Source of the DNA: Octopus sinensis
Taxonomy: Eukaryota
Assembly (NCBI RefSeq): GCF_006345805.1
Contig: NW_021833766.1
Location: 1-55,423, forward strand
DNA length: 55,423 nt
Direction: 5' to 3'
Positions 3,132-54,460 of the stretch are shown piece by piece. Each line of letters starts with the position of its first letter. The stretch's first letter is position 1. Made by a program: the position numbers and the translations under genes. The notes under the pieces were generated by a model, which saw nothing but the letters and a program-made list of their open reading frames with translations, was not told the DNA's origin and did no database searches.

Positions 3132-3142
3132 TGTGTGTTTAT

Positions 3143-3354
3143 ATTCTTTCATTTTTTTATTATTTTATTTGTTTCAGTTATTTGACTGCGGCCATGCTGG
3201 ATCACTGCCTTTATTTGAACAAATCGACTCCAGGATTTATTCTTTATAAGCCTAGTACTTATTCTATCGGTCTGTCTTGCCGAACCGCTAAGTTACAGGG
3301 ACGTAAACACACCAGCATCGATTGTCAAGCGATGTTGGGGGTGGGGGAATAAAG

Positions 3355-3397
<43 letters not shown>

Positions 3398-3555
3398 GTC
3401 TTCTTTCAGTTTCCGTCTACCAAATCCACTCACAAGGCTTTGGTTGGCCCGAGGCTATAGTAGAAGAAACTTGCCTAAGGTGCCACGCAGTGAGACTGAA
3501 GCTGGAACCATGTGGCTGGTAAGCAAGCTACTTACCACACAGCCTCTCCTGCGCC
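3143..3555 (-). mobile_element. SINE family A (tRNA-derived, CORE-like segment, internal TA/TG microsatellite), full length
   Basis: Reverse complement has a tRNA-like head (tggctgtgtggtaag...ggttc), a ccttaggcaag CORE-like segment, a microsatellite, and a tail ending ccagcatggccgcagtcaaa...gaaac. There are 10 or more related copies in the window. Confidence 0.9.
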
Positions 3556-4570: not shown

Positions 4571-5281
4571 AAACAAATATTAATATGGTGCTCCAGTATG
4601 GCCGCAGTAAAATGACTGATACAAGTAAAAGAGTAAAAGAGTATACATATGTGTGTGTGTGTGCGTGTGTGTGTGTGAATATATGTTGGGTGGGGCCGGT
4701 AAGATGCACATAAATATAACCCCATACATTTGAATATGAATGAGTGCATACAACATGCATACGGCGTATAAAACCTTGCACTTGCGAGCTAAAAATTGAA
4801 CATCACTGCGATCGCTCCGAGTAGAAGAAAGCTTACTCAAATCACACCAAGTGTCATAAATTAGGAATCCTTATTGTAGTGAATTGTTATATTCTGTGTC
4901 TCAAAAGAGTCACGACTCGAATATATTTGATCATAGATTTACGTAATGCTACCTGGTGCTAAACATCAGAAACAAACGAAATAGCAACACGCGTAGGAGT
5001 GGCTGTGTGGTAAGTAACTTGCGTACCAATTTCAGGGTTTCAGGTTCAGTCGAACTGCGTGGCATCTACTGCAAGTGTCTTCTGCTATAGCCTCGGGCCG
5101 ACCAAAGCCTTGTGATGGAATTTGGTAGAGGGAAACTGAAAGAAGTCCGTCGTATGTATATATATATATATATATATATCGCGGAGTAAGTACATAAATG
5201 TGAAAAAAGGTGGGAAAAAATAGTACTCGAATACGAAAGGTAGAGTAATATGCTTTGTTGAGATGCAGCAGAAATATCACA

Positions 5282-5327
5282 AAAACTGTTACTCAGAGTT
5301 TCACGTTCCCGTTCGTCGGATAGTTTT
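5282..5327 (-). ncRNA. Minimal type I hammerhead ribozyme-like motif (minus-strand copy)
   Basis: AAAACUAU-CCGACGA-ACG(GGAA)CGU-GAAA-CUC(U)GAG-UA|ACAGUUUU; helix II intact, one mismatch in helix I. Confidence 0.7.
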
Positions 5328-5338
5328 ACATTCTAAAC

Positions 5339-5384
5339 AAAACTGTCCGACGAACGGGAACGCGAAACTCTGAGTAACAGTTTT
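5339..5384 (+). ncRNA. Minimal type I hammerhead ribozyme-like motif (plus-strand copy)
   Basis: Helix I AAAACUGU/ACAGUUUU (8 bp), core CCGACGA (5347-5353, U4C variant), helix II ACG-GGAA-CGC, GAAA (5364-5367), palindromic helix III ACUC-U-GAGU, GUA cleavage triplet ending at 5376. Confidence 0.7.
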
Positions 5385-6029
5385 TGTGAACAGTTTTTGT
5401 GATATTTCTGCTGCTTTTCATTAAAGTATATATACACATATATATATTTTTATATATGTGTGTGTTTGTGTGTGCGTGCGTGTATGTTTCTGTGTCTGTG
5501 TTTGTCCCCAACCCTCACAAGACAACCGATGCTGCTGTGTTTACGTTCCCCGTAGCATAGTAGTTCGGCAAAGGACCGATAGAATAAGTACTAGGCTTAC
5601 AGAGAATAAGTACTGGGGTCGATTTGCTCGACTAAAAAGGCGGTACTCCAGCATGGCCGCAGTCAAATGACTGAAACAAATAAAAGAATAAAAAAATAAA
5701 AGTATAATATATCATAAAAATGTAATATAAATACTATGAAAATTAAAGATTACTAAGTTATTGAGTGTGATTCGGTGAGCACTTCTTTTAAATATTTTGC
5801 TTTTAATCGCAACTGATACATTTGACCTTTGAGGTTTTGCTATTACCATTTCTTATAAACAATGTTGGTTGCTATAAACATAGCACGAATCCCTTTATTG
5901 TTCTGCTTCATTGAAATGAAAGGTCCAACTGAAAAGTTTTGAAATTTAAAAACTAAATGTCAAGAGTCGAATTGAGAAAATATGAAAATCAACTTAAGGA
6001 ACAAGTGTCTGTTCTAGAATCACTACCTA

Positions 6030-7018: not shown

Positions 7019-7789
7019 CGGTCATGTCTTTGTTTCTGTATAAGTGTGTAAGTGGGTGCTGTTACTTCTAATATATATGTTTCTTAGCCAAACCTGTCTT
7101 GAATTAACCAATATACGACCAAAGTCTTCTAGTCATGAGCATCCAGTCCTAAAGATGTTATCATTAATATCAGCTCGGCTCTGATCAACCAGATCTTTGA
7201 CTCAAATTCCTCATCTCATCATTTATAAAAAATATCTGCCTACAGTATATCAGGGCAGCATTCTGCTGACTGCATACATAAACTGTAGGGTTTAGTATAT
7301 ACAATACAATGAATCGAAATACTTTGACTCACCGAAATTACTCAGTTGGAAGATTCCTTATATGGGACGTACAAAAGTTAAAGAAAAAGAAATAACAGAA
7401 GATTTATACCTTCAATAAAAACCAGTTGATCGAAATGTTTGTACAATACAATGTAGATTGTCCAAAACCCAGAGGTTCAATTTATCTTATTAAACAAAGT
7501 ATGGTAAAAAAAAAAAAACAATAAACAAATTAGGCAGTTTGGTGATTATTTCTAGAAGACAATTGAATTCCCTGGCTCATAGCTTTATATTAGTGGGATG
7601 TGCAATAAATGTGACGAAAGTTATCGTTTAGACCTTTGTTGGATAAGGAGAGTCTCCCGACATAATCTCAGAGCACACAGATTTCTTTGTTATGAAGTAA
7701 TGAGGGTCCAGGTAAGTGGTCACTCTAACAGCAAGAAATAAGATCGTACTTTCTCTCATATTACACACACCAACTTTAAGAAGTACACA

Positions 7790-8126
7790 GGCGCAGGATT
7801 GGCTGTGTGGTAAGTAACTTGCTTACCAACCACATGGTCCCGGGTTCTGTCCTACTGCGTGGCCCCTTTGGCAAGTGTCTTCTACTATAGCCTCGGACCG
7901 ACCAAAGCCTTGTGTGTGTGCATGTTTTTGTGTCTGTGTTTGTCCCCTCAACATCGTTTTGACAACCAATGCTGGTTTGTTTACGTCCCAGTAACTTAGT
8001 GGTTCGGCAAAAGAGACCGATAGAATAAGTACTGGGCTTACAAAGAATAAGTCCTGTGGTCGATATGCTCGACTAAAGGCGGTGCTCCAGCATGGCCACA
8101 TTCAAATGACTGAAACAATTAATAAA
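7790..8126 (+). mobile_element. SINE family A with an internal deletion
   Basis: ggcgcaggattggctgtgtggtaag head through to ctccagcatggccaca...gactgaaac tail. Confidence 0.9.
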
Positions 8127-8738
8127 ATGAATAATGTTTTGATGTTTGATGTCATTTCATCACAAAAATGAGATGGTCACTGTTGGAATGTGTTTCACCA
8201 TAAGTGTACTCAAACACGCTGACCTACTTTCAACAACCACTCCAACTACAACAACAGCATCACCATTAGCAGTAGCGGTAGCAGCAAAACTATTTTTATA
8301 ACTATTTTTTTGTAAATGTTACATTTTAAAATTTTTATAAAAATATAAAATGAGTGAGATCAATAAAAAAATAATCAATTATCGACAGGTATCTTCGTTG
8401 AAAACAACACAGTAACATACACTTCTTTTCGTGATGGGAGTATAATTCTATACCATCATAAACATCAAATAAGATTTCAAAATTCAATACTTGATAGTAG
8501 GGTAAGATTGACTATAGTTCAGATAAAATAAATCGAATACAGCAATATAGGGTAACTAGTGAATGGTCTGTATCTTCAAATGAAATAGGTTGTAAGATGA
8601 CATGTTTGATTTTATTTATTAATGGTCATATTTTAAAGTCCATATTCATAAGAGAATTCTATTATTTGAAATTCAGACTTCAGAAGACGCACTAAAATTA
8701 ATGCTGTGTTCTTTTTGTCTTTCATTTTTTTTTTTCAG

Positions 8739-18096: not shown

Positions 18097-18238
18097 GGAG
18101 CTACCTAGATAGATAGACAGACAGACAAACAGTCAGACAGACAGATAGATTCATAGATAGATAGATATATTGTATATATGAATATACTGACATGTGATTG
18201 TGTGTGTGTGTGTGTGTGTGTGAAAGAAAAAACGAGCG

Positions 18239-18294
<56 letters not shown>

Positions 18295-18362
18295 GAGGAG
18301 GAGGAGGAGGATGATTATGATGATGAGGACGGCGACGTCGATAATAATAATGATAATAATAA
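18239..18362. repeat. (TAA)n array, partly decayed to GAG/GAT, upstream of the Dong-like elements
   Basis: Direct tandem repeats. Confidence 0.9.
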
Positions 18363-19590
18363 CTGCCTGTCCCAGCCAGACATTGATCAAAATCTAACAC
18401 ACCAATGGCTACAAGGGACAGGTCTGAAAGGGGAAATGGAAGGTTTTGCTATTGCAGCACTAGATCAGAGCTTACCTATCAGAAACTGCCATGCAAACGT
18501 CCTTAAAGATGAATCTGACACCTCGTGCAGAATTTGCGGAAAATTCACAGAGGCAATTGATCATGTTGTCTCTGGCTATCCAGTCCTCGCTGAAAAGGAG
18601 TAACTCATAAGACATGACAGACTAGTGCAGTACATCCACTGGAATGCTTGTAAATACTACAAAATTAAATGCCTTGATAAGTGGTGCAGGCACCATCCAG
18701 AAGGCGTCACCATCCTTTCGAATTTCCCAATACAAACAGACAGAAAAATTGACTGCAATCGACCAGACATTGTGATCTAGGACCACAACAGGGGAACTTG
18801 TCTGTTAATAGATATGTCTGTCTTACAAGATAAAAATGTCTCAAGAAAGGAATACGGAAACCTTTCTTACTATAAAGATTTGCAAATTGCAATCACAAAA
18901 ATGTGGAGGCTAAATACTACGATAATACCAGTAGTAACTGTTTCGTTGAGAATGATAAAGAAGGGAGCTGGGGAGTATATTCTTTTCTACTCTTGGCACA
19001 AGGCCCAAAATTTTGGGGGAGGAAGGGCCAGTCGATTAGATCGACCCCAGTACGAAACTGGTACATAATTTATCGACCCCAAGGCAAAATCGACCTCGGC
19101 GGAATTTGAACTCAGAGCGTAAAGACAGACGAAATACCTATTTCTTTACTACCCACAAGGGGCTAAACACAGAGGGGACAAACAAGGACAGACAAACGGA
19201 TTAAGTCGATTATATCGACCCCAGTGTGTAACTGGTACTTATTTAATCGGCCCCGAAAGGATGAAAGGCAAAGTCGACCTCGGCAGAATTTGAAATCAGA
19301 GCGTAAAGGCAAACGAAATACCGCTAAGCATTTCGCCCGGCGTGCTAATGTTTCTGCCAGTTAGCCGCTGAGAAGTATATTAAGCAACACCCTGGTAACT
19401 CCAATTTCCTTGAACTACAAAAGATAACCTTGGTAGGTGCAGCCCATATACTACGATAGCACTCTCGATCTAAAATGGAATAAATGTGGTTATAATTTTA
19501 GCATGCATAACAAAACAAAAGTGCCCTTGCTGCTCTTAGTCTCCGCAGGATGCCCGGTACTAGGGCAGCTGAAATAAAGTTATAATGAAA
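18361..19590 (+). mobile_element. R4/Dong-clade non-LTR retrotransposon, 5'-truncated and decayed (copy 1), interrupted by a SINE
   Basis: LKGEMEGFAIAALDQSL, zinc knuckle CRICGKFTEAIDHVVSG, RHD, NRPDIV...IDMSV...K..YKDL...MW (restriction-like endonuclease). The frame resumes after the SINE as ELQKITLVGAAHILR. Stops and frameshifts are present. Confidence 0.9.
18982..19366 (-). mobile_element. SINE family B, composite two-unit copy
   Basis: 15-bp target duplication GCTGGGGAGTATATT (18967-18981) / GCTGAGAAGTATATT (19367-19381). Two tandem central domains (aaatt..gccgaggtcga.tttgcc) with different tails. Confidence 0.9.
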
Positions 19591-26547: not shown

Positions 26548-26843
26548 GTTTTACTCTTTTACTTGTCGGTCATTTGACTGTGGCCATGCTGGAGCACCGC
26601 CTTTAGTCGAGCAAGTCAACCCCAGGACTTATTCTTTGTAAGCCTAGTACTTATTCTTTTGGTCTCTTTTGACGTACTGCTAAGTTACGGGGACGTAAAC
26701 ACACCAGCATCGGTTGTCAAGCGATGTTGGGGGGGGGGACAAACACAAACACACAAACATATACACACACATATATATATACATATCTACGACGGTCTTC
26801 TTTTCAGTTTCCGTCTACCAAATCGACTCATAAGGCTTTGGTT
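26548..26843 (-). mobile_element. SINE family A, 5'-truncated
   Basis: Tail, microsatellite and ttcagtttccgtctaccaaatc segment are present. Confidence 0.88.
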
Positions 26844-45247: not shown

Positions 45248-45574
45248 ATATGAGAGAGAGAGAGAGAGAGAGAGATACAACATACATACATACATACATA
45301 CATACATACATACATACATACATACATACATACATACATACATAATACATGCATATATCTCTTCATTCACCAGAGCCAATAGCACACGAAAAAAAAATGT
45401 AAAATATACTTTAATATATCATATTTGAAATGCCGCGATTTTTTGAGACGCACTATTCGATGTAGTGTAAAAATAATATCTATCATTACTAAATATTTAA
45501 AAGTTTCTCTGAAAGTGGCGTCACCAGATGCATACGTACAACTTTGACGTTAATCAGTCACTATTGATATATAT

Positions 45575-45970
45575 GAGTGGCTGTGTGGTAAGTAGCTTGC
45601 TAACCATCCACATGGTTCCGGGTTCAGTCCCACTGCGTGGCATCTTGGCCAAGTGTCTTCTGCTATAGCCTCGGGCCGACCAATGCCTTGTGAGTGGATT
45701 TGGTAGACGGAAACTGAAAGAAGCCTGTCGTATATATGTATATATATGTATGTGTGTGTATGTGTTTGTGTGTCTGTGTTTGTCCCCCTAGCATTGCTTG
45801 ACAACCGATGCTGGTGTGCTTACGTCACTTATCGGTTCGGCAAAAGAGACCGATAGAATAAGTACTGGGCTTACAAAGAATAAGTCCCGGGGTCGATTTG
45901 CTCGACTAAAGGCGGTGTTCCAGCATGGCCGCAGTCAAATGACCGAAACACAAGTAAAAGAGTAAAAGAG
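45575..45970 (+). mobile_element. SINE family A, nearly full length
   Basis: Head, CORE-like segment, microsatellite and tail all present. Confidence 0.92.
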
Positions 45971-45973
45971 AGG

Positions 45974-46028
<55 letters not shown>

Positions 46029-46083
46029 AAAAGAGATACAATACAGATATATACACACACACACATTATCTGTGTATTTATAT

Positions 46084-46431
46084 ATTCTCTTATTCTTTTA
46101 TTTGTTTCAGTCATTCGACTGCGGCCATGCTGGAGCACCGCTTTTAGTCGAACAAATCGACCCCCGGACTTATTCTCTGGATGCCTAGTACTTATTCTAA
46201 CGGTCTCTTTTGCCGTACTGCTAAGTAAACACGCCGACATCCGTTAGCAAGTGATGATGAGGGGACAAACACAGATACACAAACATATATATTATATATA
46301 TATATATATATACGACCAGCCTCTTTCAATTTCCGTCTACCAAATCCGCTCACAAGGCTTTGGTCGGCCCGAGGCTATAGTAGAAGACATTTGCCCAAGG
46401 TGCCACGCAATGGGACTGAACTCGGAACGCA
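46084..46431 (-). mobile_element. SINE family A
   Basis: Reverse complement of the neighbouring copy. Confidence 0.9.
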
Positions 46432-46442
46432 TGTAGATAGAC

Positions 46443-46780
46443 GAATTTGGTAAACGAAAACTGAAAGAACCCCGTCGTATAGATCTATATGTGTATGTGT
46501 GTGTACGTGTATGTGTGCGAACGTGTGTGCGTGTGTGTGTGTGTGTGTGAATGCGTGTGTGTGTCTATGTGTCTGTATTTGTTCACCCCACTATCGCAGG
46601 ACAACCGATGCTGGTGTGTTTACGTCCGCGAAACTGGCCGTTCGGCAAAATTGACCGATAGAATAAGTACTTGGTTTACAAAGAGTAAGTTCAGAGAGCG
46701 ATCTATTCGACTAAAGGCCGTCCTCCAGCATGGCCGCAGTCAAAATGGCTGAAACAAGTAAAAATAAAAGAAAAAAAAGA
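46443..46780 (+). mobile_element. SINE family A, 5'-truncated
   Basis: aactgaaagaaccccgtcgtata, microsatellite, then tail ctccagcatggccgcagtcaaa. Confidence 0.85.
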
Positions 46781-47597
46781 ATGTATATTTGTCCAAAATC
46801 ATGCATTAGGAGTGAATGGTGAATGGAGAGTAATTCAATGAAAAAGCAGTAGTGGGAGTAATAGCCACGACTGAGTGTGAATAAGAGAAAGTAAGAGCAA
46901 TGAGAGAGAGAGGAAGTGGCAAAGAGAGCGTCGTGTATCTTCCACTATAATAATCAGTTATAATAATACACTTGTGTATTCCTCCATCACAACATATGAA
47001 TGAGAAAGGAAGTGGTGATTCACCAATGGAAGTGGGATGGTGAAATGTAAATGGTGAAACAAAGATCAAACAGTGTTTCAACTCTGTGTGAGTATATGTG
47101 TGTGCGTATGAAAGGGAGGAATGTGAATGTTTGTGTAAAATGTATTTATATATTTCAGTGAGTGTATATGTGTTTGTGGATGTTTATTTAGAAAGATACA
47201 CAGAAGATGGCATTACGGACGCGCATTACACATACATATATACAGACACACTTAAAAAGGAAGGAAGCGCGCTGTGACATTATATAGAAAACCGCCTTCG
47301 CTACGGACTCTACTACTCATATATATAAATTTATACACATGCACATACGCACACAAGCGAGCGCGCGGGCACACACACAAACACACACACACACAGTTGA
47401 AGCACTGATTTTTCCCCCACCTTTTTGTACCCTTTTAATATCAAAATACTACAATTAGCCGTCATTTTTGATGGCACAGGATTTGCTATACACAAACACA
47501 AGCACATATATATGTATATAAACGTATATGCAACTATGCATGTATTTACACACATATGTATGCACACACCTGTATACACACCTGTATACATATACAG

Positions 47598-51906: not shown

Positions 51907-52266
51907 GAGATACAATGAAAGTCAGAGAGAAGGTGAAAGACAGACAGTCAGACTGAGGCACAGAATCACAATTGCTGCCAAGATACCCACAGACAAACGC
52001 ACAGAGACACACATTCGCATATATACCTTCACCCAGTCACGTACATCCTTTCTTACATTCATACATCTGTCTGTCTGTCGCGTCTTTCCATGCCAACATT
52101 CTTATAAATTACGTCACAAGCACTTGCACTGCCGTCATGGAATCTCTTTTACTCTTCTTAGAGCTTGTGGGTGGGTAGAGTCGTATGGTTATGCATGATG
52201 AATGTATGAGGCTCACTGCATGCACCTGCGTGTGTGTCTGTGTGTGTGAGACATATATATATATAT

Positions 52267-52625
52267 TGTTTTATTCTTTTGCTTGTATCAATCAATTGAT
52301 TGCGGCAAAGCTGGAGCATCGCTTTTTAGTCGGAGAATTCGTCAACGTGATTTATTCTTTGTAAGCCCGATACTTAATCTATCGGTCTCGTTTGCCGAAT
52401 CTTTAAGTTACGGGGTTATAAATACACTAACATAGGTTGTCAAGTGATCAGTGGGGGGGGGGACGACAAGCACAAACACAAAGACACAGATATAAATACA
52501 CACACATATTTACAACGAGCCTCTTTTCAGTTTTCGTCTACCAAATCCATTCACAATGCTTTGGTCGCCTCGAGGCTAGAGAAGACCCTTGCTCAATGTG
52601 ACACGCAATGGGACTGTAACCGGAA
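52267..52625 (-). mobile_element. SINE family A, decayed
   Basis: Collinear with the 53040 copy, with many substitutions. Confidence 0.8.
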
Positions 52626-52667
52626 GCATCTTTTTTAGACTTATAATGTCAATAGCGCAGGTATATA

Positions 52668-52883
52668 TCAACAACAGGCGAAGAATCGCCAACAGCGGTG
52701 GTTTATTTTTTTATTATTTATTTAATTTGGTAAGCTTCAGGTTGGATGGTGATCTAGTTAGACAGTGATGTTCTCTTGCCATGTGTTACCAATGGAATGT
52801 TGGTATTGATGAAGCCGAAATATGCAGAGATCCAAATCTAGCCATGACACCACCGCTGTTGAGTGATCTTCGCATAGTGTTGA
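52668..52883. mobile_element. Candidate MITE with ~34-bp imperfect TIRs
   Basis: tcaac..gcgaagaatcgccaacagcggtgg / ccaccgctgttgagtgatcttcgc...gttga. Confidence 0.55.
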
Positions 52884-53039
52884 TTAATTTCTGTTTTTAA
52901 GAATACATGTCTATAACAGATGCTTTCTCGGGGTGAATAATGCAGCTTAGAAGGCTGCCCACAAATGTACACACACATACCACACACACACAGACACACA
53001 CACACACGCACACGCACCACACACACACACACACATATT

Positions 53040-53560
53040 ATTTTACTCTTTTACCTGTTTCAGTCATTTGACTGCGGCCATGCTGGAGCACCGCCTTTAG
53101 TCGAGCAACTCGACCCCGGGACTTATTCTTTGTAAGCCCAGTACTTATTCTATTGGTCTCTTTTTGCTGAACCGCTAAGTGACGGGGACGTAAACACACC
53201 AGCATCGGTTGTCAAGCAATGCTAGGGGGACAAACACAGACACACAGACATACACGTACACACATATATATATATACATATATATACGATGGGCTTCCCT
53301 CAGCTTCCGTCTACCAAATCCACTCACAAGGCTTTGGTGGGCCCGAGGCTATAGTAGAAGACACTTGCCCAGGGTGCCACGCAGGTGTCATACATATATA
53401 TGACGGGCTTCATTCGGTTTCCGTCCCCCAAACCCACACAACAGGCTTTAATCGGCCCGAGACTGTAGTACAAGATATCTTCCCAAGGCGCCGCGCAGAG
53501 GGACTGAGCCTAGAACCATGTGATTGTGAAACAAACTTCTTACCATATAACAACACCTGC
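53040..53560 (-). mobile_element. SINE family A, young copy abutting an older head segment
   Basis: 53040-53383 is close to the other full copies; 53395-53560 repeats the head region in diverged form. Confidence 0.88.
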
Positions 53561-53646
53561 GTCTATATATGTCCAGAGGCACTATCTTGATAGTTTTCGT
53601 GTTTTTCTGTATGTTTCTTCGTTGTCCTCCTGTGTCATATTTTATA

Positions 53647-54460
53647 TGGCCATGTGGTAAAAAAATTAACTTCTCAGCCTTGCGGTTCCGAGTTCAGTCC
53701 CACAGTTTTGTTTCTTGGGCAAATGTCTTCTGCTATAACCTCAATGCCGCTTAAAGTATTGTTAATGGATTTGGTCGATGGAATTTGAAAGAAGCCCATC
53801 ATTTGTGTGTGTGTGTATTTACGTATGTGTTTGTCTTTGCCACCGCTTGACAGCCAGAGATGGTGTGTTTACGTCCCCGTAACGGATCTTTTCGATTTGA
53901 ACGGCAGTTTTTAACATAATTTCTAGGTAACTAAAAAATTTTAAACTTCGTAAACTGGTAGAATGTGTTTATAAAACATCTTTTTCTCTTGGCTTTATTG
54001 AGAAAATTCTATAGTTTGTAAGATATTTGTTGTTGTTTTTCTTCAATTTCTGCAATTTCAACCAATCAGTGACGTCTATTGAGGTAAAAAAAAAACATTC
54101 TGTGCCGTATGAATATGTCCCTCGTTTAAGAAACAGATTGGGTTTATTTACATTTGTGAAGATTAAAAGATATTCTTCTCCCCATCCCTAACCCTAACTC
54201 TAACCCTAACCTTAATCCTAAAACAGATTGAAATGCAATAGATCGATACTAGGGTCATAATTATGGGTGACATTTTCATATGACACCGCTAGAAAAGCTG
54301 CCGGTCAAACCGAAAAGATCCCCCGTAGCTTGCGGTTCGGCAAAAGATAATTGATAAAACGAGTACCAGTCTTTAGAAAAACGAAGTACTGGTGACGTCT
54401 AAAACTGGCAACGCGGCGGCCCAGGACGCAGTCGAATGACTGAAACAAATAAAACGAAAA
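53647..54460 (+). mobile_element. SINE family A, interrupted by a MITE
   Basis: gtttacgtccccgtaac| ... |ttgcggttcggcaaaaga continues the family sequence across the insertion. Confidence 0.85.
53884..54321. mobile_element. MITE with ~28-bp TIRs and an internal telomere-like (CCCTAA)n tract
   Basis: GGATCTTTTCGATTTGAACGGCAGTTTT / AAAAGCTGCCGGTCAAACCGAAAAGATCC; 8-bp target duplication CCCGTAAC / CCCGTAGC; ccctaaccctaactctaaccctaaccttaatcctaa at about 54186-54221. Confidence 0.88.

What the first reader, a model, noticed from the sequence alone, without database searches (positions are those of the whole stretch)
5248..5431. Mirror-image pair of hammerhead ribozymes forming a palindrome inside a SINE
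Seen: both arms of a ~180-nt inverted repeat encode a complete type I hammerhead topology: 8-bp helix I, CCGACGA core, 3-bp helix II with GGAA loop, GAAA, palindromic helix III ACUC-U-GAGU and a GUA site. One copy lies on each strand, 11 nt apart. Established: Penelope-like elements carry minimal hammerheads whose short palindromic helix III is thought to need dimerisation, and they often leave inverted terminal copies. Inference: a transcript from either strand contains one ribozyme plus its own antisense, so the long hairpin should compete with the ribozyme fold. That would make it a self-silenced ribozyme and a dsRNA substrate, located downstream of a SINE pol III promoter. The U4C core is present in both copies, so it predates the inversion.
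Basis: partly seen in the sequence, partly recalled or inferred. Interest (0 to 1): 0.75.

Follow-up and report, generated by a model that had tools for sequence, protein, structure and literature searches.

The report
Back-to-back Penelope stubs inside a SINE
The mirror-image pair of hammerhead ribozyme motifs is real, but it is the common back-to-back stub of a Penelope-type jumping gene sitting in the TA repeat of an unrelated SINE, likely built when both cut DNA strands copied the start of the element's RNA, and it is not a purpose-built RNA switch.

Summary
The palindrome and both hammerhead (HHR) motifs are real, but each arm has one damaged helix and the insert is larger than reported: about 5181-5426. 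It is two head-to-head 3' ends (pLTRs) of a Hydra-clade Penelope-like element (PLE). Long copies run RT, CxCX5C linker, endonuclease, 3' UTR, then this HHR. It sits in the central (TA)n of a SINE; other SINE copies are empty there, and at most 3 of 89 family loci lie in a SINE. Palindromes are the family norm (47 of 72 loci), and 114 of 118 close inverted insertions have the ~70-nt tail on exactly one arm, as here. Inverted pLTRs with a one-sided tail are published. U4C is ancestral in this subfamily, a younger sister subfamily with intact ORFs has the canonical core, and copies show CpG-type decay. Arm 5' ends pile up just upstream of the HHR, not at its cut site. This fits priming on both target strands from two internal sites of uncleaved RNA (inferred). 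A T4 run at 5324 would likely stop SINE Pol III before the sense HHR. The scan found this kind of insertion before on other DNA. Low interest.

The parts
4993..5152 (+). 5' half of the host SINE (A/B-box-like head; approximate limits)
   Evidence: matches several other SINE copies in the window; promoter-box reading is from recall
5153..5179 (.). (TA)n target microsatellite, left part
   Evidence: sequence; other SINE copies have an uninterrupted (TA)n(TG)n centre
5181..5252 (-). ~70-nt PLE tail of the left arm; in intact sister elements it is 5' UTR ending about 66 nt before the ATG
   Evidence: alignment to L248 and L152; layout
5253..5327 (-). left arm: pLTR end with HHR; 5' end at -8 relative to C3
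5282..5327 (-). minus-strand type I HHR motif, U4C core, C3 at 5319, predicted cut after 5290; A.C mismatch in helix I
5328..5338 (+). the 11-nt spacer: 1-2 junction bases plus element positions -17 to -9 of the right arm; 5330 is the inferred RNA start
   Evidence: alignment; arm-end counts
5339..5384 (+). plus-strand type I HHR motif, U4C core, C3 at 5347, predicted cut after 5376; A.C mismatch closing helix II
5376..5401 (+). 13-nt tandem duplication within the right arm
5330..5426 (+). right arm: pLTR end without tail, ending at the short 3' site
5427..5490 (.). (TA)n/(TG)n microsatellite, right part
5491..5700 (+). 3' half of the host SINE (approximate limits)

Best explanation
The feature is a ~246-bp insertion of two head-to-head pLTR ends of a Hydra-clade Penelope-like retrotransposon in the (TA)n centre of a SINE, likely made when the element's enzyme cut both target strands and primed two cDNAs from two internal sites of uncleaved element RNA. 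Shown: PLE identity, (TA)n target, palindromes as the family norm, tail on exactly one arm, both 3' ends internal to the element's 5' UTR, arm 5' ends clustered just upstream of the HHR. Inferred: one strand primes at the tail end (+138 from C3) and the other at the short end (+66); both run towards the RNA 5' end (about -17, an Initiator-like site); the two cDNA 3' ends anneal by microhomology. The HHRs ride along uncut. If the locus is read through, the hairpin is predicted to mask them, as a by-product and not a selected function. Confidence is about 0.95 for the identity and about 0.6 for the two-strand priming mechanism.
For: Long copies are collinear from RT motifs through the CxCX5C linker, endonuclease and ~1.2-kb UTR to the HHR. 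Closest full protein P0002 (51%) has the RW and DKT motifs. Sister subfamily (~82% nt) has intact ~712-aa ORFs, HHR at -205 from the ATG and a canonical core. Inverted arm at 50 of 89, 47 of 72 and 28 of 63 loci. One-tail rule: 87 of 90 and 27 of 28. In 34 of 87 the tail-less arm reaches at least 6 nt further 5' than the tailed arm, so neither arm contains the other; the reverse holds in 13 (p=0.003); the window is such a case. Young subfamily: 40 arm ends at -17..-1, 0 at -28..-18, 5 exactly at -17, of 91 arms; four spacer-less palindromes centred on a self-complementary 4-mer. PMC11167929 (main text read): a purified PLE cuts and extends both strands, starts at two internal sites that bound the tail, and uses mainly uncleaved RNA.
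Against: In the young subfamily most arms are nearly symmetric and the asymmetry is not significant (7 against 4, p=0.55). Central deletions after insertion could also make non-nested arms. The -17 edge is blurred in the window's own subfamily (8 of 119 arms at -28..-18). The start site is inferred from arm ends and a recalled Initiator consensus, with no RNA-end data. PMC11167929 saw no difference in start site between strands, which does not by itself explain the one-tail rule. Clade placement rests on motifs, with no tree. No intact ORF of the window's own U4C subfamily was found among the 9 long loci fetched.
Confidence: 0.85

Rival explanations
1. Same element, but the inverted arm arises by self-priming or fold-back (on an antisense template, as proposed in PMC3846280), with the tail set by endonuclease resolution of the intermediate (PMC8557442).
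For: Many young palindromes are nearly symmetric with 0-4 nt overlap. Arms mostly share subfamily-diagnostic bases (51 of 61 and 62 of 74). The model is published for head-to-head junctions.
Against: 34 of 87 pairs are non-nested; L263 and L293 carry only 7-13 nt of tail joined to a long tail-less arm; arm ends stop at a sense-strand position (-17); both-strand extension was shown in vitro.
Confidence: 0.25
2. One reading: a SINE Pol III transcript carrying a ribozyme and its own antisense, acting as a self-silenced ribozyme and dsRNA substrate with a function.
For: Hairpin far more stable than the HHR fold; SINE head lies upstream on +.
Against: Nested, near-unique insertion (at most 3 of 89 loci in a SINE); first T4 at 5324-5327 precedes the + HHR (Pol III stopping at 4 or more T is recalled); each arm is damaged; family changes are mostly C>T and G>A (114 of 223 substitutions in inverted arms).
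Confidence: 0.05
3. The short palindrome is the remnant of a longer inverted insertion whose centre was deleted later.
For: Long inverted insertions exist (L063, L071, L252, L262). Palindromes are unstable (general knowledge).
Against: Centres cluster at -17..-1 with none at -28..-18 in young copies, and identical junctions recur at separate loci (L267 and L273).
Confidence: 0.08

Closest known systems
Hydra clade of Penelope-like elements (Craig et al. 2021, PMC8557442; passages and supplement Files S1/S2 seen), including Hydra-1_Obim
   Same: C-terminal endonuclease, RWK and DKT motifs, CxCX5C linker, CxxC and CxH around E and N, (TA)n target, HHR near the 3' end. Hydra-2_aMil has the same inner helix I, palindromic helix III and cut triplet.
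   Different: The HHR listed for Hydra-1_oBim is a different sequence, so this looks like another family. All Hydra HHRs in File S2 have U4; this subfamily has C4. The 3' UTR is about 1.2 kb.
Inverted-pLTR insertion units of endonuclease-positive PLEs (Adineta Pen2a, PMC3846280; D. virilis Penelope, PMC2377424; passages seen)
   Same: Head-to-head inverted pLTR with the tail on one of the two ends.
   Different: Here the unit is reduced to two ~90-150-nt arms, the tail is about 70 nt (30-40 nt in those papers), and the one-tail rule is counted (114 of 118).
PAc/Poseidon of Anolis (Frangieh et al. 2024, PMC11167929; main text read)
   Same: Two internal 3' ends bounding the tail; AT-rich target; HHR-uncut template.
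   Different: Other clade; there the ORF starts inside the HHR, here 205 nt downstream; the text I read does not discuss inverted insertions.
Minimal and PLE hammerheads (Cervera and De la Pena 2014, PMC4209133; parts 1-2 of 4 read); U4C viroid variant (PMC3088659, passages)
   Same: Type I HHR with short palindromic helix III, thought to act as a dimer; opposite-strand pairs 100-700 bp apart were noted there. U4C is a known natural variant with much lower in vitro activity.
   Different: Helix II has only 2-3 bp with a GNRA loop; U4C is the master state of a whole retroelement subfamily.

Membership tests
Hydra-clade PLE | single ORF, RT followed by a C-terminal GIY-YIG-type endonuclease, linked to this pLTR | tested here: met
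   Pfam GIY-YIG hit only on homolog P0047, none on the element's own pieces
Hydra-clade PLE | CxCX5C linker; CxxC and CxH flanking E and N; no CCHH cysteines in the GIY-YIG core | tested here: met
   read by eye from translations; the one sister ORF printed (L244) lacks the second linker Cys
Hydra-clade PLE | DKT motif | tested here: met
   own-subfamily copy L152 and sister ORF L244
Hydra-clade PLE | RWK motif | tested here: inconclusive
   present in the sister subfamily; no own-subfamily copy with that region was fetched
Hydra-clade PLE | insertion into (TA)n | tested here: met
   68 of 89 loci have (TA)n within 15 nt of the 3' end; nearly all 63 young loci by eye
Hydra-clade PLE | canonical HHR in the pLTR | tested here: inconclusive
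   U4C in this subfamily; canonical core in the sister subfamily
Hydra-clade PLE | phylogenetic placement in the Hydra clade | not tested
   no tree built; reference proteins were not loaded
Type I hammerhead ribozyme | core nucleotides and three helices | tested here: inconclusive
   all core positions but U4 present; the sister subfamily differs at N7, the GNRA loop, loop III, U4 and 11.1; no compensatory changes seen within the family; no Rfam match
Type I hammerhead ribozyme | self-cleavage | not testable with these tools
   indirect only: no pile-up of arm ends at the cut site
Host SINE family | HHR palindrome is part of the SINE unit | tested here: not met
   4 other SINE copies printed lack it; at most 3 of 89 family loci are nested in a SINE
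Non-LTR retrozyme | non-coding tandem HHR monomers | tested here: not met
   belongs to a coding element; a direct tandem arm upstream was seen in 1 of 89 loci

The most novel reading that the evidence does not exclude
These octopus stubs are a genomic record of the PLE insertion reaction: a dimeric enzyme primes both strands of a cut (TA)n at the two feet of the tail in the 5' UTR of one uncleaved mRNA, both cDNAs run off at the transcription start (-17) and anneal. This would replace the antisense self-priming model for head-to-head PLE repeats, map the promoter from DNA alone, and show that a subfamily with a weakened (U4C) ribozyme spread to many hundreds of copies without needing to cut.
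Probability: 0.5. Interest if true: 0.5.

Novelty: new member of a known kind. Interest (0 to 1): 0.27.

Why it matters
The locus itself is an ordinary dead insertion. The family statistics matter a little more: how PLEs form inverted ends and a one-sided tail is still open, and this family gives counts (114 of 118 one-tail; arm ends bounded at -17; no excess at the ribozyme cut site) that a mechanism has to explain and that the existing in vitro PLE system can test. Intact young ORFs of the sister subfamily offer a Hydra-clade enzyme for that test.

Tried and rejected
Rfam: no HHR match; the miRNA matches are far below gathering score and reflect a generic hairpin. ARAGORN: no tRNA in the window. 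RNA evidence: no RNA holder listed; four contig runs laid on the locus were swamped by other repeat copies and no piece spans it, so nothing can be said on expression or editing. Editing imprint in DNA: A>G 24 against T>C 18 in inverted arms, 4 against 9 in 25 solo copies, no clear signal. Ribozyme-cut template: 8 of 119 and 4 of 91 arm ends are compatible with +30, most with microhomology ambiguity, and the weighted bin is about the same as its neighbours. MITE: rejected, since the outer ends are retroelement 3' ends and the centres vary. Pfam did not recognise the element's own ORF pieces. Target-site duplication cannot be resolved in (TA)n. Lunse et al. 2017 (PLE hammerhead dimers) was not held and was seen only as cited in PMC6765202; it may list U4 variants. 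bioRxiv 10.64898/2026.07.22.740005: abstract and outline only. Searches for a published two-strand priming model found none, but Evgen'ev and Arkhipova 2005 and Arkhipova 2006 were not read, and the supplements of PMC11167929 were not opened.

Full report
Observation. The inverted repeat is present: arms 5277-5327 and 5339-5389, 96% complementary, 11 nt apart. A generic hammerhead pattern hits both arms, with C3 at 5347 (+) and 5319 (-). Each arm has one defect relative to the family: A.C closing helix II on +, and A.C in helix I on -. The predicted hairpin is -85.5 kcal/mol against -3.7 for the monomeric HHR fold, and forcing that fold in 5180-5431 raises the energy from -126.7 to -73.0. Rfam does not recognise the motif.

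It is a repeat family, not part of the SINE. The genome (G000, 2.72 Gb; octopus is my inference from the SINE and from earlier scan notes) has 312 exact copies of the 34-nt core, 468 with four core positions free and 1214 of a 25-nt 3' motif. These count arms, not insertions, and are lower bounds. Four other SINE copies in the window have a plain microsatellite centre. A script flagged 3 of 89 family loci as nested in a SINE, of which only L086 is clear from the coordinates. The insert runs from about 5181 to 5426 between (TA)n tracts, and the left arm carries a ~70-nt tail.

The parent element. Walking upstream gave copies such as L151 and L152 that are collinear from RT motifs through a CxCX5C linker, an endonuclease with CxxC and CxH around E and N, and a ~1.2-kb UTR to the HHR; all 9 long loci fetched are broken or 5'-truncated. 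Homologues of about 570-800 aa were found (52 proteins); the best has the RW and DKT motifs. These are the stated features of the Hydra clade (PMC8557442, passages). Its File S2 lists Hydra HHRs of the same build, all with U4, and a different HHR for Hydra-1_oBim. A younger sister subfamily in the same genome, about 82% identical in the ORF, has open frames of 721-728 codons at several loci, a canonical core and 2286 matches to its own 3' motif. In it the HHR lies 205 nt before the ATG and the tail ends about 66 nt before it, so both 3' ends of the stubs are internal sites of the 5' UTR. I built no tree.

U4C. In the first 100 of 468 rows (hand count) position 4 is C in 84, T in 11 and G or A in 5; G5A occurs 8 times, C7T 17 times and G8A 9 times. 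This is the symmetric pattern of CpG decay from a C4 master, and catalytically essential positions are not spared. U4C is described as lowering activity considerably in vitro while still allowing viroid infectivity (PMC3088659, passage).

Palindromes are the norm. Set A: 89 loci chosen by the core motif (90 fetched, one overlapping locus dropped), 50 with an inverted arm. Set B: 72 of the first 100 matches of the 3' motif (second arms and places already held were left out, which removes some intact-core copies), 47 inverted. Set C: 63 loci from the first 100 matches of the sister subfamily (second arms, one tandem neighbour and the last rows left out), 28 close inverted (one search counted 30, two of them false matches to AT-rich reference). 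Exactly one arm has the full tail in 87 of 90 close pairs of sets A and B and in 27 of 28 of set C. [quoted passage not shown]

Mechanism. Shown here: in 34 of 87 pairs the tail-less arm reaches at least 6 nt further 5' than the tailed arm, the reverse in 13; the window is such a pair (-17 against -8). In set C the asymmetry is weak (7 against 4). [quoted passage not shown] Ends compatible with the HHR cut site number 8 and 4 and do not stand above neighbouring bins. Known: a purified PLE cuts and extends both target strands, starts at two internal sites bounding the tail, and uses mainly uncleaved RNA (PMC11167929, parts 1-2). Inferred: each strand primes at one of the two sites, both cDNAs run towards the RNA 5' end, and they anneal by microhomology, giving a short head-to-head palindrome with two uncut HHRs and one tail. 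The published alternative is self-priming on an antisense template. Later central deletion is not excluded.

The hairpin would mask the ribozyme in any read-through RNA, but that follows from the insertion geometry shared by many hundreds of loci. A Pol III transcript from the SINE head meets its first T4 run at 5324-5327, before the + HHR (the termination rule is recalled). No usable RNA data were found.

Earlier notes of this scan (unchecked AI notes, opened) describe the same kind of insertion in this and other genomes, some with the same two-strand idea; they are not independent support. One reports ends at the ribozyme cut site in another family, which I do not see here. The sequence look-up found nothing.

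Verdict. A new member of a known kind: an inverted pLTR stub of a Hydra-clade PLE. Interest 0.27.

Noticed in passing
L244, L248, L256, L262 (G000): Young Hydra-clade subfamily with intact ~712-aa ORFs, canonical HHR core and at least 2286 matches to its 3' motif; its HHR differs from the one listed for Hydra-1_oBim.
   Followed up: partly
window 5376-5401: 13-nt tandem duplication whose register can start exactly at the predicted HHR cut site; similar short duplications occur in L008 and L018, so probably slippage.
   Followed up: no
L277: Solo copy of the young subfamily whose 5' end abuts (TA)n at +28..+30, compatible with a ribozyme-cut template; a single case.
   Followed up: partly
L263, L293: Insertions where only 7-13 nt of the tail end are joined head-to-head to a long tail-less arm.
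   Followed up: partly
L267 and L273: Two separate loci share an identical -17/-4 junction but carry the tail on opposite arms.
   Followed up: no
L061, just downstream of the tail: 415-codon open frame of a related PLE RT, apparently from a different family, in the adjacent microsatellite.
   Followed up: no
window 18157-18600: Open frame whose C-terminal part resembles the end of a non-LTR retrotransposon ORF seen in L155, by eye only.
   Followed up: no
window, about 3142-3554, 7787-8134, 26549-26842, 45572-46782, 52256-53806: Many further copies of the host SINE.
   Followed up: partly
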